Below are positions 1,262 through 54,995 of a stretch of DNA of 55,532 nucleotides, piece by piece. The stretch is from positions 3,547,800 to 3,603,331 of the forward strand of contig NC_057754.1 of NCBI RefSeq assembly GCF_004010195.1, written 5' to 3'. A model generated the notes under the pieces. That model searched no databases. It was not told the DNA's origin and was given only the letters and a program-made list of their open reading frames with translations. Each line of letters starts with the position of its first letter. The stretch's first letter is position 1. This stretch comes from Chiloscyllium plagiosum. Its lineage: Eukaryota. A program made the translations under genes and the position numbers.

Positions 1262-1542
1262 ACTTACAGTGTGGAAACAGGGCCTTTGGCCCAACAAGTC
1301 CACACCGACCCGCCGAAGAGCAACCTGACATTTACCCCTTCACCTAACACTACGGGCAATTTAGCCTGGCCAATTCACCTGGCCTGCACATCTTTGGACT
1401 GTGGGAAGAAACCGGAGCTCCCGGAGGGTACACACACAGACACAGGGAGAACGTGCAAACTCCACACAAACAGTTGCCTGAGGCGGGAATTGAACCCAGG
1501 TCCCTGGCGCTGTGAGGCAACAGTGCTAACCACTGTGCCACA
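1262..1542 (-). mobile_element. HE1-like tRNA-derived V-SINE, no internal amplification
   Basis: Reverse complement starts GTGGCACAGTGGTTAGCACTGTTGCCTCACAGCGCCAGGGACCTGGGTTCAATTCC (A/B boxes), followed by the V-domain TGTGTGGAGTTTGCACGTTCTCC. Confidence 0.85.
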
Positions 1543-1829
1543 TTCTGAAATCCAAACAGGGGGGGCCTTGCTCAAACAGGTTCAGAGGGCAGTTAAGAGT
1601 CAACCACATCGCTTGTGGGTCTGGAGTCCCATGTAGGCCTCAGTCTAGGGTAAGGATGGCAGATTCCTTCACTAAAGGGCAGGAGTGAACCAGATGAGTT
1701 TTCCCAACAAATTGAATGTAAATTCCTTTAGCCTCTGTGATGGGATTTGAATATCTGACTGGGGTATTTGTCCAGGCCTTTAGATTATTTCATCCAGGAA
1801 CAAATTACGACTGTGCAATGATCCAACAT

Positions 1830-5904: not shown

Positions 5905-6870
5905 TAATGACCTGTCCACCACCTACAAGCCGTAAGTCAGGAGGGTGAGGGAATACTCCCCACTTGCCCCCGGATGGATACAGCCCCAACAACACTCCAA
6001 AAGCTTGACACTATCCAAGATAAAGCAGCCCCTCGCTTGATTGACACTGCATGCGCAATCCCTCCACCTCAGTAGCAGCAGGGTGTACCATCTCCAAGAT
6101 GCACTGCAGAAATTCACACAATGATCGTGAACTTAGGACACAGATTTGGTCCTTCTTTGTTCCTGTGTAGGAGGTGGGCACTGTGCTCCAGGCCAGTATT
6201 TGTCGTCTATCCTAACTAGCCTGAGAAAGCCGTGTTGAGCTGCTTTATTGAACCGCTGCAGTCATATGGTGTAGATAGACAATTAGGGAGGGAGTTCATG
6301 GATTTTAACACAGCAGCCGATATATTTCCAAGTCAGGATGGTGAGGGGCTCGGAGGGCAAGCTGCAGGGGGTGGTATTCCCATGTATCTGCTGCCCTTGT
6401 TCTTCGAGATGGGAGTGCTTGTGGGTTTGGAAGGTGCTGTCTCAGGAGTTTTGGTAAGTTTCTGCAGTGCCTCTTGTAGGTGGTACACACTGCTGCGACT
6501 GAGCGTCGGTGGGGAAGGGAGTGAGGATGTGGTGCCAATCAAGCGAGGGGGCTGCTTTGTCCCTGGATGGTGTCGAGCTTCTCGAGTGTTGTTGGAGCTG
6601 CCCCCATCCGGGGGCAAGTGGGGAGTATTCCCTCACCCTCCTGACTTGTGGCTTGTAGATGGTGGGACAGGCTTTGGGGGGGGGGGGGGGAGTAAGGAGA
6701 GGAGTCCTAACCTCTGATTTGCTCCTGTATTCATAAGGCTGGTCCACTTCAGGTTCTGATCACCTGACGATGATAATAGTGGGGCATCCCGTGATGGTCA
6801 TTTTAGTGAATGTCAAGGTGATGGTTAGATTCTCTTTTATTGGAGATGGTCAGTCCCTGGCATTTGATTG
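5905..6870. mobile_element. Two oppositely oriented fragments of a Crack/Daphne-like LINE
   Basis: Plus copy ~5905-6120 and minus copy ~6200-6870 share TIYKPQVRRVREYSPLA / LDTIQDKAA / HRRSVAAVCTTYK-type peptides. Confidence 0.6.
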
Positions 6871-7700
6871 TCATAGAAGTATACAGCACAGAAACAGACC
6901 CTTCAGTCCAACCCGTCCATGCTGACCAGATATCCCAACCTAATCTAGTCCCATTTGCCAGCACTTGGCCCATATCCCTCTAAACCATTCCTATTCATGT
7001 CCCCATCCAGATGTTGGCATTGTACCAGCCTCCACCACTTCCTCTGGCAGCTCATTCCATACATGTACCACCCTCTGTGTGAAAACGTTGCCAAGGAGGC
7101 TGAGGGGTGACCTTATAAAATCTTAAGGGGCATATTTGGCAGTTGCCTTTTTTCTAGAACGGGGGAGTTCAAAACTAGTGGGCATATTTTTAAGATGAGA
7201 GGGGAAAGACTTAAAAAGGACCTGAGGGTCATCTTTTTCACACAGAGGGTGATTTGTGTGTAGAATGAACAGCAGAGGAAGTAGTGAATGCAGGTACAGT
7301 TACAATGTTTAAGTAACATTTGGACAGGTACATGAATAGGAAAGGTTTAAGTGGATATGGGCCAAACGCCGGCAAATGGGACTAGTTTAGTTTGGGAATC
7401 CTAGTAAGTTGGATCAAAGGGTCTGTTTCTGTGCTGCATGACTCTATGACTCTTTATGCCCCTTAGTCTTGAAATCCCCCACTCAAGGTAAAAGATACCT
7501 GCCATTCACCTTCTTAATGCTCCTCATGATTTTATAAACCTCTATGAGGTCACCCCTCAACCTCCTATGCTCCAGTGAAGAAAATCCCAGTTTATCATCC
7601 AGCCTTTCCTTACAACTCAAGTCCTCCATTCCCAGTAACATCCTGGTAAATCTCTTCTGGACCCTCTCCAGTTTAATAATATCCTTCTTATAACAGAGTA
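6870..7700. mobile_element. Cluster of CR1/HER1-like 3' fragments (minus, plus, minus)
   Basis: CR1 ORF2 end motifs (LRGDL, FFTQRV) and an ATGACTCTATGACTCT tail. Confidence 0.75.
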
Positions 7701-20775: not shown

Positions 20776-20881
20776 GGTGAGCGAAGAGAAGGAAGCTCGG
20801 GGTTACTTGCAGTCGCTGGCCACCAAGATGGCGGAGGAACTGGACTCGCTGAAGAGCATCAGCAGTAACGCCAAGCCTGTG
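20776..20881 (+). CDS. CDC42BPG: CDC42BPG-like exon
   Basis: CAG/GTGAG, 106 nt, phase 2-0. VSEEKEARGYLQSLATKMAEELDSLK; ATKMAEEL is gamma-like. Confidence 0.93.
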
Positions 20882-21026
20882 GTGAGGCCTGAGACTGCTC
20901 TGGGAGGGGAGGGTGAGGGAGGTCTACTGCTGTAAACATGACGAGTAAGTGAGGACTGCAGATCAGAGTCGAAATGTGTGGAGCTGGAAAAGTACAGCTG
21001 GTCGGGCAGCATCCAAGGAGCAGGAG

Positions 21027-21062
21027 AATCGATGTTTCGGGCAAAAGCTCTTCCTCAGGAAT
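21027..21062 (-). ncRNA. Minimal hammerhead ribozyme motif (degenerate)
   Basis: Reverse complement ATTC CTGAGGA A GAGC TTTT GCCC GAAAC ATC GATT; one stem II mismatch and GUC changed to AUC. Confidence 0.55.
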
Positions 21063-21065
21063 GTC

Positions 21066-21101
21066 ATTCTTGATGAAGGGCTTATGCCCGAAACGTCAAT
21101 T
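21066..21101 (+). ncRNA. Minimal hammerhead ribozyme motif (core C changed to T)
   Basis: ATTC TTGATGA A GGGC TTAT GCCC GAAAC GTC AATT. Confidence 0.6.
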
Positions 21102-21254
21102 GTCCTGCTCCTGGGATGCTGCCCGACCGGCTGTGCTTTTCCAGCACCACACTGTTTGACTGCTGTAGAAATGAGGCAGAAACATTCCTCACACCCCTCC
21201 CTCCCTGGCTGGAGGTGGACTTGCAGATGGGGGTGGGGAGGGAGGGCAAATGGC

Positions 21255-34221: not shown

Positions 34222-35335
34222 GTGATGTTGTGGATGACACCAAAATTGGTGGGAGAGTGGGCAGTGAAGAAGGTTATCTTGGATTATAAAGAGATCTTGA
34301 TCAATTGGGTCAATGGTTGAGGAGGGGCCGATGGAGTTTAATTTGGATACATGAAAGATATTGGTAAAACAAAAAAGGACACGGCTTATACAATTCAAAG
34401 TAGAGCCGTGATAGTGTTGTGGAACAGAGCAATCTAGGGATTCAGGTACATAATTCTTTTGAAGTTTGCATCACATATAGATAGGGTGGTTAAGGAGGTG
34501 TTGCGACGACATGTTGAGGTTGTGCAGGACGTTGGTAAGGCCTCTTCTGGAGTACTGTGTCCACCTGTGGTCTCTCTGTTACAGGAAGGATATTGTCAAA
34601 CTGGCAGAGGGTTCAGAAGAGGGAGAACAGTGAGGACTGCAGATGCTGGAGCTCAGAGTCACGAGTGTGGTGCTGGAAAAGCACAAGCAGTATCCGAGGA
34701 GCAGGAGAATCGACGTTTCAGGCTGTAGGGTTCAGGGTTGAGAAGTGATTTTTCAGGATGTTGCCGGGAATGGACGGTTTGGGTTATATGGAGAGGTTGG
34801 GACTATTTTGAGAGGTGACCTTGTCGAGGCGCATAAAATCATGAGGGGTATTGATAAAGTGAGTGGCGATGTCGTTTTCCTGGGGCGGGGTGGGGGAATG
34901 CTTTCAATATTAGGGGGTATATTTTTAATGTGAGAGAAGAAAGATTTAAAAAATACATGAGGGGCAATTTACTGTACACAATGATTTTTGTGGAGAAATC
35001 CTCCTGAGGATGTGGCGGATGGGGTCCAGTTTCACTGTTTAAAAGACAGTTGGATAAGGACATGAACAGGGAAAGGTTTGGTGGGATATCATTCAGGAGC
35101 AGGCAGGTGGGGCTAGTTTAGTCTGGGAGCAGGGACTGGTTGGATCTAAGGGTCTGTTTCCATGCTGTCTGACTCTATCGCTCTGTAACATTTAAAAGGC
35201 ATCTGGATGGGTACATGCATTGGAAGGTTAGAGAGGGAAGTGGGCTAAATGCTGGCAAATGGGAATAGACTAATTTAGGATATCTGGTCAGCATGGACGA
35301 GTTGGACCGAAAGGTCTGTTTCTGTGCTTAATGAC
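34222..35335 (+). mobile_element. CR1-like LINE ORF2 fragments with a PLE-terminus insert (~34625-34725)
   Basis: DDTKIGG RT motif at the gap edge; RGDLVEAHKIMRG; 3' tails. Confidence 0.8.
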
Positions 35336-53831: not shown

Positions 53832-54340
53832 CAACGATATCTCCTGTTCCACCTGGGCAGCTTACAGCCTGGAAATGTGTTGCTGGAAAAGCGCAGCAGG
53901 TCAGGCAGCATCTAGGGAACAGGAGAATCGAGAGGGGAAGTGAGGAAACTGGTGAAATCCGAGTTCATCCCTTGTGGTTGGAGGGTTCCTAGCCGGAAGA
54001 TGAGGCGTTCTTCCTCCAACCATCGTTACAGCCTGGAGGATTCAACATTGACTTCTCCAATTTCAAATAACTTCCCTTCAATTCCCAGCTACCTACCAGA
54101 TTTATTTCTCCCATTGACCAACCAGATCGTACCCTCTGCCTCTCCTCACCTATCCCCACTTCACCACCCTGCCCACACCAGATCCTTTATCTGAAGCTCC
54201 TCCTACACCCAGCCCCCACTCCTGAAGAAGGGTTTTACCCGAAACATTGACTATTCCACCTCCTGATGCTGCCTGGCTTGCTGTGTTCTTCCGGCCTCCT
54301 GCCTGTTTACTTTGGATTTGAGCTCTGCAGTTTATTATTT
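53832..54340. mobile_element. Neptune-type PLE fragment (+) containing a second PLE fragment (-)
   Basis: Plus LLFHLGSLQPG..FNIDFSNFK*; minus LEEERLIFRLGTLQPQGMNSDFTSF; TTACAGCCTGGA duplicated at 53862 and 54026. Confidence 0.75.
54218..54252 (+). ncRNA. Minimal hammerhead ribozyme motif
   Basis: ACTC CTGAAGA A GGGT TTT ACCC GAAAC ATT GACT; core intact, stem III side altered. Confidence 0.55.
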
Positions 54341-54892: not shown

Positions 54893-54995
54893 GGTTCTGA
54901 GGAAGGGTCATTGGACTCCAAAATATTAACTTTGTTTTCCCTTCACAGATGCTGCCAGATCTGCTGAGCTTTTCCAGCAACTTCTGATTTTATGT
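54893..54995 (+). mobile_element. PLE terminus with degenerate hammerhead
   Basis: GGTT CTGAGGA A GGGTC ATTG GACTCC AAAAT ATT AACT..GATGCTGCCAGATCTGCTGAGCTTTTCCAGC. Confidence 0.6.

What the first reader, a model, noticed from the sequence alone, without database searches (positions are those of the whole stretch)
20948..21162. Palindromic ~200-bp element made of two head-to-head hammerhead ribozyme motifs inside a kinase intron
Seen: a long inverted repeat centred on GAATG-T-CATTC. Each strand reads (C/T)TGANGA-A-G(G/A)GC-loop-GCCC-GAAAC-(G/A)TC followed by the same tail, with no coding sequence. Established: minimal type-I hammerheads with a palindromic ACGT stem III mark Penelope-like element termini and are proposed to cleave as dimers; PLEs often leave inverted termini. 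Inference: a non-autonomous MITE/retrozyme-like unit presenting a ribozyme whichever strand is transcribed, where the long hairpin competes with ribozyme folding. Four such fold-backs from three families in 55 kb suggest an abundant, little-described shark repeat class. Both motifs here carry substitutions and may be inactive.
Basis: partly seen in the sequence, partly recalled or inferred. Interest (0 to 1): 0.75.

Follow-up and report, generated by a model that had tools for sequence, protein, structure and literature searches.

The report
Penelope twin run-off insertion stub
This 217-base mirror-image repeat in a shark kinase intron is one of an estimated 150,000 separate stubs of a Penelope-type jumping gene, each likely built on landing from two short DNA copies of the start of the element's RNA, one per cut DNA strand, so it is not a new two-way ribozyme but would show how these elements make their unexplained inverted ends.

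Summary
The palindrome is real (97-nt arms, 86%; z -18.9) but is not a fixed MITE/retrozyme unit. It is an ORF-less insertion of an RT + GIY-YIG Penelope-like element (PLE): 20942-21158, 16-bp target duplication, one arm with the PLE 'tail', one without. In 160 evenly spaced 10-kb genome stretches: 306 arms, 78 head-to-head pairs, 71 with one long plus one short arm, 52 with a target duplication (control 1), 53 different centre spacings. Arm 5' ends pile up just before the hammerhead (50 of 87 young arms at positions 0-8; none at the cut site), at an initiator-like motif; an untemplated G is enriched (59% vs 39%). The short arm often reaches further 5' than the long one (15 of 22; 39 of 71), against fold-back. 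Likely mechanism: both nicked target strands prime reverse transcription at two internal sites near the 5' end of uncleaved, probably capped RNA; the run-off cDNAs are joined. Both hammerheads here are mutated and buried in the hairpin. The structure is known for PLEs; I found the mechanism in none of five paper searches. This scan's agents reached the same reading on other copies in this genome.

The parts
20776..20881 (+). Host exon upstream of the insertion (MRCK-type kinase gene, inferred); the element begins 60 nt into the following intron
   Evidence: AG/GT boundaries; spliced joint into 20775 and contig piece 20775-20882 in run X15; kinase exon at 453-632
20926..20941 (+). Left copy of the 16-bp target-site duplication
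   Evidence: 14 of 16 identical to 21159-21174; family mode 15 bp
20942..21063 (-). Long arm: element positions +1 to ~+130 (pLTR end with tail), read on the minus strand
   Evidence: blastn of arm reference, 1-130
20942..20966 (-). One-sided PLE tail (about 34 nt in intact copies; 9-bp deletion here)
   Evidence: absent from the right arm; long ends at 127-130 vs short ends at 83-106 in 87 young arms
21031..21058 (-). Minimal hammerhead motif of the long arm: core intact, stem II with an A-C mismatch, GUC changed to AUC (CpG decay)
   Evidence: stem II pair probability <=0.25 even in the arm alone
21064..21158 (+). Short arm: element positions 0 to ~+94, ends in a 3-nt microhomology with the target duplication; the central T is the templated base at position 0
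   Evidence: upstream sequence of long copies
21070..21097 (+). Minimal hammerhead motif of the short arm: C3 changed to U, stem II intact, GUC intact (predicted cut after 21097)
21159..21174 (+). Right copy of the target-site duplication

Best explanation
This is an independent, ORF-less insertion of an endonuclease-bearing (Neptune/Nematis-type) Penelope-like retrotransposon, likely made when both strands of a staggered cut primed reverse transcription near the 5' end of the element's uncleaved, probably capped RNA and the two run-off copies were joined head to head. Steps: (1, shown) the arm is the terminal repeat of an RT + GIY-YIG element; (2, shown) insertions carry a ~15-bp target duplication and have two fixed outer ends, about +93-96 and +130; (3, inferred) the endonuclease leaves ~15-nt 3' overhangs and each 3'-OH primes at one of these two sites; (4, shown) inner ends stop at a sharp wall at +1 to +3 and are nibbled rightwards; (5, inferred) the wall is the transcription start (initiator-like CTCATTCC, TATA-like motif about 30 nt upstream, extra G from the cap); (6, inferred) the two cDNA ends anneal through short inverted repeats that the hammerhead itself supplies, or through filler bases, and repair completes the palindrome; (7, predicted) the two hammerheads are passengers: inherited, mutated and buried in the hairpin. 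If only one strand captures a cDNA a solo stub results; if one cDNA comes from a longer tandem or read-through RNA, the classical 'inverted pLTR' element results.
For: Parent: sequence upstream of longer arms encodes GIY-YIG (PF01541, 22.7 bits vs cut-off 22.6); relatives carry RT + GIY-YIG; a decayed near-full-length copy with inverted 5' arm, RT, EN and 3' arm lies in L043:3177-6961, with a C-x4-C-x2-C-x-H linker. Structure: 71 of 78 pairs have one long + one short arm; target duplication in 52 of 78 (43 of them 14-16 bp) vs 1 of 78 in shifted flanks; 53 distinct centre spacings. Two start sites: in 87 young arms 45 end at 127-130 and 42 at 83-106 (29 at 93-96); solos of both lengths carry their own target duplication (6 long, 6 short at the wall found automatically; more by eye). 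Wall: 134 of 306 random arms start at -2..+12 (8.9 per nt) vs 0.35 per nt at -30..-11 and 1.9 per nt at 31-38; 50 of 87 young arms at 0-8, none at -6..-1, none at 33-35. TTAT(C/T) starts 29-32 nt before the A at +2 in 26 of 32 long copies although the spacer differs between subfamilies. Untemplated base before +2 is G in 10,476 of 17,743 young copies vs 39 of the first 100 at control position +6. Neither arm is a subset of the other: the short arm reaches further 5' in 15 of 22 young pairs (6 opposite, 1 tie) and 39 of 71 random pairs (24 opposite, 8 ties). In vitro, an anole PLE cuts and extends both strands, starts at two internal sites that bound the tail, uses uncleaved RNA and is predicted to be a dimer (PMC11167929, main text read). 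L249 shows a cDNA that stops at +3 and continues in a more downstream part of the element, as a template jump would give.
Against: No RNA 5'-end data: the one raw-read RNA run that mapped showed no place where many molecules begin or end (single-cell polyA, 2% of the run read), so the wall could be an RT block (bound protein or structure) rather than the RNA end. The G signal is modest: the control also has 39% G, 6 of 10 inspected G copies could take the G from the partner arm or the target duplication, and in older subfamilies G:A was only 10:8 in the first 100 listed, where T is templated. Arms of one pair are nearly always the same subfamily (non-CpG distance 0.062 vs 0.119 shuffled, 64 pairs; 18 of 18 concordant at a young diagnostic site), which fits one RNA or one source but is also what fold-back predicts. 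Automatic search found a target duplication in only 17 of 132 solos without a long body. The assembly has N gaps at long inverted copies, so long forms are under-counted. Junction microhomology blurs ends by 1-3 nt.
Confidence: 0.75

Rival explanations
1. Fold-back/self-priming: one cDNA (or an antisense RNA, as proposed in PMC3846280) folds on itself at the hammerhead's short inverted repeats and is copied back, giving the second arm.
For: Arms in a pair share subfamily and rare variants (both arms of this copy have C at position 60, seen in 2 of 290 random arms); the commonest junction (8 of 78 pairs) is a 3-nt microhomology that looks like a hairpin turn; PMC3846280 Discussion (read) proposes self-priming.
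Against: The short arm reaches further 5' than the long arm in 15 of 22 and 39 of 71 pairs while the long arm alone has the tail; the commonest junction occurs in both polarities (L257, L275, L287 vs L288); short ends in pairs fall where solo short insertions end; many centres hold filler bases, not loops.
Confidence: 0.12
2. Same two-strand priming, but the wall at +1..+3 is a reverse-transcriptase block (protein bound at the hammerhead/stem I) on a longer RNA, not the RNA's 5' end.
For: The wall coincides with the first base of hammerhead stem I (4 bp in the youngest subfamily); 14 of 87 young arms pass the wall; no RNA start was seen in reads.
Against: A structure would be expected to stall RT at its 3' side (26-37), where ends are not enriched (1.9 per nt); initiator-like motif, spaced TATA-like motif and extra G all point at +2.
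Confidence: 0.08
3. One reading: a non-autonomous MITE/retrozyme-like palindromic unit that spreads as such and offers a ribozyme on either strand.
For: Very high copy number; the window's junction type recurs (L002, L022, L024, L027 among the 30 best-hit loci, which were selected for likeness to the query); one re-mobilised head-to-head unit exists (L244 and L269 share 577 bp at 99.3% including junction and 136 bp of flank).
Against: 53 spacings in 78 pairs; recurrent junctions occur in different subfamilies and polarities; target duplication of variable length, not the fixed short one of a DNA transposon; no tandem monomers; ribozyme fold buried (~1e-11) and mutated; inner ends avoid the cut site.
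Confidence: 0.04

Closest known systems
Insertion unit of endonuclease-positive Penelope-like elements with inverted 5'-truncated pLTR, one-sided 30-40-bp tail and target duplication (Pen2a_Av, PMC3846280; general scheme PMC8557442; PMC8969392; passages read)
   Same: Head-to-head inverted terminal copy, tail at one end only, target duplication, hammerhead in the pLTR, RT + C-terminal GIY-YIG parent with Zn-finger-like linker.
   Different: No ORF at all: both halves are only 95-130 nt; target duplication about 15 bp (8-10 bp in the rotifer cases read); an estimated 150,000 copies; inner ends pile up at one site.
Poseidon_Ac (PAc) of green anole, in vitro (PMC11167929, main text read)
   Same: Both target strands cut and extended; two internal RT start sites bounding the tail; hammerhead cleavage not needed, uncleaved RNA used.
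   Different: Penelope/Poseidon clade; the text read does not explain inverted ends or report a 5' run-off wall; priming there is described as non-homologous, while ends here often show 2-5 nt of microhomology (by eye).
Minimal hammerheads of metazoan PLEs (PMC4209133, results and discussion read)
   Same: Core, unpaired base before stem II, G10.1-C11.1, palindromic 15.2-16.2; that paper already notes dual motifs 100-700 bp apart on opposite strands.
   Different: Stem II only 4 bp here; both motifs in this copy are mutated.
Non-LTR retrozymes (PMC7229834, listing only; bioRxiv 10.64898/2026.07.22.740005, passages read)
   Same: Non-coding, hammerhead-bearing, PLE-derived.
   Different: Retrozymes are head-to-tail tandems cut into monomers; these are head-to-head, single and end away from the cut site.
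L1 twin priming (recalled; PMC2837659 and PMC2912911 seen as listings only)
   Same: Both target strands prime; two cDNAs joined by microhomology; target duplication.
   Different: L1 twin priming copies two non-overlapping parts of one RNA from the poly(A) end; here the two cDNAs overlap, start at fixed internal sites and both stop at one 5' boundary.

Membership tests
EN+ Penelope-like element insertion | Parent ORF with RT and C-terminal GIY-YIG endonuclease directly upstream of the terminal repeat | tested here: met
EN+ Penelope-like element insertion | pLTR at both ends of the ORF (partial tandem) with a hammerhead motif | tested here: met
   L043 has the tail before the body and the full arm after the EN; motif conservation
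EN+ Penelope-like element insertion | Inverted 5'-truncated copy and 30-40-bp tail at one end only | tested here: met
   71 of 78 pairs; ends at 93-96 vs 130
EN+ Penelope-like element insertion | Target-site duplication | tested here: met
   16 bp here; 52 of 78 vs 1 of 78
Neptune/Nematis clades | [quoted passage not shown] | tested here: met
   C-x4-C-x2-C-x-H before the GIY-YIG in L043
Neptune/Nematis clades | RT phylogeny with named clade members | not tested
   no named reference set was fetched
Minimal type-I hammerhead (PLE type) | Core CUGANGA / GAAA / NUH, bulge before stem II, G-C closing pair, palindromic stem III | tested here: met
   family level: variation sits at N7 and loop II, 56 of 156 full motifs intact; this copy: C3U in one arm, AUC and a stem II mismatch in the other
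Minimal type-I hammerhead (PLE type) | Self-cleavage (dimer or protein-assisted) | not testable with these tools
   no genomic pile-up at the cut site; no read ends seen
MITE | Copies of uniform length with a fixed centre and fixed-length target duplication | tested here: not met
   53 spacings in 78 pairs; duplication 12-21 bp; asymmetric ends
Non-LTR retrozyme | Head-to-tail tandem monomers bounded by hammerheads | tested here: not met
   pairs are head-to-head; inner ends avoid the cut site
Catalogued shark repeat family (Repbase/Dfam) | An entry with this sequence and structure | not testable with these tools
   no repeat library is held; five paper searches listed none on it

The most novel reading that the evidence does not exclude
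Penelope-like elements integrate by obligatory two-ended priming near the 5' end of a capped transcript whose first 37 bases are the hammerhead; every insertion starts as one or two 'strong-stop' cDNAs, and inverted pLTRs, the one-sided tail, solo stubs and partial tandems are outcomes of whether these cDNAs jump template or are joined. The shark genome then holds ~150,000 frozen intermediates that map the RNA start and both RT start sites at base resolution and seed introns with ~100-bp hairpins.
Probability: 0.55. Interest if true: 0.7.

Novelty: new member of a known kind. Interest (0 to 1): 0.48.

Why it matters
How PLEs make their inverted ends and one-sided tail is named as open in PMC8557442 and PMC3846280 (which suggests self-priming on an antisense RNA). 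The copy statistics here favour two-strand priming with run-off at the RNA start and give exact, testable coordinates (start +2, RT starts +93-96 and +130, 15-nt stagger), which the existing in vitro PLE system could check. They also argue that the hammerhead does not cut the RNA that is inserted. For annotation, such stubs can be mistaken for MITEs or ribozyme elements. As ready-made hairpins in introns they would be ADAR substrates (a lizard Penelope and a frog palindromic repeat are heavily edited, PMC5625713 passages); not shown here.

Tried and rejected
Rfam scan of the window: no hammerhead family at E<=1. First genome search ranks copies by likeness to the query, so it was not used for statistics; 160 evenly spaced 10-kb stretches (contigs C1-C46, 1,545,233 called bases) and 64 consecutive young loci on C1 were used instead. 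Pile-up of inner ends at the hammerhead cut site: suggested by BLAST starts at 34-36, rejected after finer mapping (CpG decay and a reference mismatch). Spliced 5' leader as the cause of the wall: rejected, no AG at the wall and solos join straight to target DNA. Two different RNAs per insertion: looked for, not shown (a few discordant old pairs such as L057, L210, none in young pairs). A 60-nt DNA query gave no match because common words are skipped. RNA runs: no RNA holder listed; X23 and X1 laid nothing; X22 reads over this locus came from other copies (97% run on unlike), so editing, cleavage and expression of this copy are untested. Pfam on the decayed L086 frame found nothing; Pfam and PDB on the neighbouring exon found nothing significant. 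Rows dropped: 14 of 78 pairs with under 35 shared columns; six duplicate loci of pairs; the four '-313' young ends are an indel against the reference copy, not true ends. Supplements of the papers were not read and may hold shark PLE entries or junction data.

Full report
Observation. The inverted repeat is there: arms 20967-21063 and 21065-21161, 97 nt, 86% complementary, folding at -169.4 kcal/mol against -77.5 for shuffles (z -18.9). The true insertion is 20942-21158, between 16-bp direct repeats (20926-20941 and 21159-21174, 14 of 16 identical). The left arm (minus strand) is 122 nt and carries an extra terminal stretch that the 95-nt right arm lacks. It lies 60 nt into an intron; spliced contigs join the neighbouring exons and the window's upstream kinase exon is MRCK-type. 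Positions below are counted on an arm, +1 being the C five bases before the hammerhead core; the core is 6-12, stem II 14-25, the predicted cut lies after 33.

What the arm is. Longer copies continue upstream into a GIY-YIG endonuclease (PF01541 at the curated cut-off; 134,290 first-look candidates in the genome). Database relatives carry RT and GIY-YIG in one ORF and the closest named ones are from a bamboo shark (81% and 75%). A sampled stretch, L043, holds a decayed near-full-length element: inverted short arm, tail, body, RT, EN, then a full arm, with a C-x4-C-x2-C-x-H linker, which PMC8557442 (passages) gives as the mark of Neptune/Nematis. So the arm is the terminal repeat (pLTR end plus tail) of an endonuclease-positive Penelope-like element (PLE). 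Across subfamilies the motif varies at N7 and in loop II and is otherwise constant apart from CpG decay; 56 of 156 complete motifs are intact. It meets the minimal-hammerhead description of PMC4209133 (parts 1-2 of 4 read), which already notes dual motifs on opposite strands.

Unit or by-product. In 160 evenly spaced 10-kb stretches (1,545,233 called bases) there are 306 arms and 78 head-to-head pairs within 400 nt; 67 are short palindromes, 43 per Mb, about 150,000 if the whole 3.56-Gb assembly is alike (only C1-C46 were sampled). One young subfamily alone has 21,891 exact matches to a 32-mer. Of the 78 pairs, 71 have one long and one short arm, 5 two short, 2 two long; 52 have a target duplication of 12-21 bp (43 of 14-16 bp) against 1 of 78 in flanks moved out by 150 nt; the centre spacing takes 53 values, the commonest in 8 pairs. 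The commonest junction and the window's own junction type recur in different subfamilies and in both polarities. One exception was found: L244 and L269 share 577 bp at 99.3%, junction and 136 bp of flank included, so a head-to-head unit can be re-copied from a read-through source, as a minor route (1 repeat among 22 young pairs).

Outer ends. In 87 arms from 64 consecutive young loci (one arm belongs to a sister subfamily), 45 end at 127-130 (the reference stopped at 130) and 42 at 83-106, 29 of them at 93-96. The difference, 34-37 nt, is the PLE tail found at one end only (PMC3846280, PMC8557442). PMC11167929 (parts 1-2 of 4 read) shows in vitro that an anole PLE cuts and extends both strands and starts at two internal sites that bound the tail. 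Solos of both lengths have their own target duplication (6 long and 6 short at the wall, though only 17 of 132 solos gave one automatically; more by eye), so each site works alone.

Inner ends. 134 of 306 sampled arms start at -2..+12 (8.9 per nt), against 0.35 per nt at -30..-11 and 1.9 per nt at both 13-30 and 31-38. In young arms 50 of 87 start at 0-8, none at -6..-1, none at 33-35, and 14 pass upstream. The edge is sharp on the upstream side and frayed downstream, as run-off followed by trimming would give. It falls on the A of an initiator-like CTCATTCC (consensus recalled), with TTAT(C/T) 29-32 nt upstream in 26 of 32 long copies across subfamilies whose spacers differ; PMC3846280 describes a TATA plus initiator in a rotifer pLTR and PMC2377424 (passages) a promoter within Penelope's terminal region. 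Where the base before +2 is not the templated C, it is G in 10,476 of 17,743 young copies against 39 of the first 100 at +6; none of 10 inspected G copies had element sequence upstream, but in 6 the partner arm or target could supply the G, and older subfamilies gave 10 G to 8 A in the first 100. A cap-templated G is therefore likely, not proven. Templates were evidently not cut by the hammerhead, in line with PMC11167929.

Two cDNAs or fold-back. A fold-back copy cannot hold sequence that its template arm lacks. The long arm alone has the tail, yet the short arm reaches further 5' in 15 of 22 young pairs (6 opposite, 1 tie) and 39 of 71 sampled pairs (24 opposite, 8 ties). Both arms must then have been copied from RNA. 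Against this, arms of a pair are nearly always of one subfamily (0.062 vs 0.119 shuffled, 64 pairs; 18 of 18 at a young diagnostic site), so one RNA or one source served both; whether one or two molecules is open. The antisense self-priming idea of PMC3846280 (Discussion read) is not strictly excluded but does not explain solos that share both outer sites and the inner wall.

The ribozymes in this copy. The short arm has C3U; the long arm has AUC for GUC and an A-C mismatch in stem II. In the full palindrome stem II pairs with probability about 1e-11 on either strand (1.00 and <=0.25 in the arms alone, prediction), and the antisense arm is always transcribed first. No reads specific to this copy were found. 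A two-way ribozyme is not supported.

Mechanism. Shown: parent, target duplication, two outer ends, inner wall, variable junctions. Inferred: a ~15-nt staggered cut, priming from both 3' ends (one at +130, one at +93-96, often with 2-5 nt microhomology seen by eye), run-off at a capped 5' end whose first 37 nt are the hammerhead, joining through the hammerhead's short inverted repeats or filler bases. L249, where a copy stops at +3 and continues in a more downstream part of the element, fits a template jump after run-off.

Novelty. The structure is the known PLE insertion unit in its smallest form; it is neither a MITE nor a retrozyme. The explanation of inverted ends by twin run-off was in none of the papers listed or read from five searches; Repbase, Dfam, subscription papers and supplements could not be checked. 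My reading was written before the look-up, which showed that other agents of this scan reached it on other copies in this genome; those notes are not independent support. Interest 0.48: an ordinary copy of an abundant repeat whose family statistics make an open mechanistic question directly testable.

Noticed in passing
window:54365-54559: Second palindrome of the same family (younger subfamily), long arm from +50, short arm from +3, filler bases at the centre, 15-bp target duplication.
   Followed up: partly
window:32062-32453: Head-to-head pair of a different hammerhead family with a longer stem II; probably another PLE family.
   Followed up: no
window:3440-3700, 34622-34723, 53873-53931, 54217-54295, 54948-54981: Further solo or decayed arms of this and related families.
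   Followed up: no
window:5894-6687 and 6870-7450: Two long inverted repeats (80-86%) made of other repeat sequences, without the hammerhead motif scanned for.
   Followed up: no
L244:1364-1940 and L269:260-836: Same head-to-head junction (-143/-70) plus 136 bp of non-element flank at two loci 3.5 Mb apart, 99.3% identical: a re-copied palindromic unit.
   Followed up: partly
L249 (about 1530-1660, minus strand): Arm starting at +3 preceded by tail-and-body sequence of the same element: apparent template jump from the RNA 5' end.
   Followed up: partly
L043:3177-6961: Decayed near-full-length parent element with inverted 5' arm and a long low-complexity Thr/Pro-rich stretch before the RT.
   Followed up: partly
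window:20942-20966: The 9-bp tail deletion of this copy recurs in many best-hit loci but in only 1 of 57 tails in the even sample: a rare deletion between short direct repeats, enriched by the search.
   Followed up: yes
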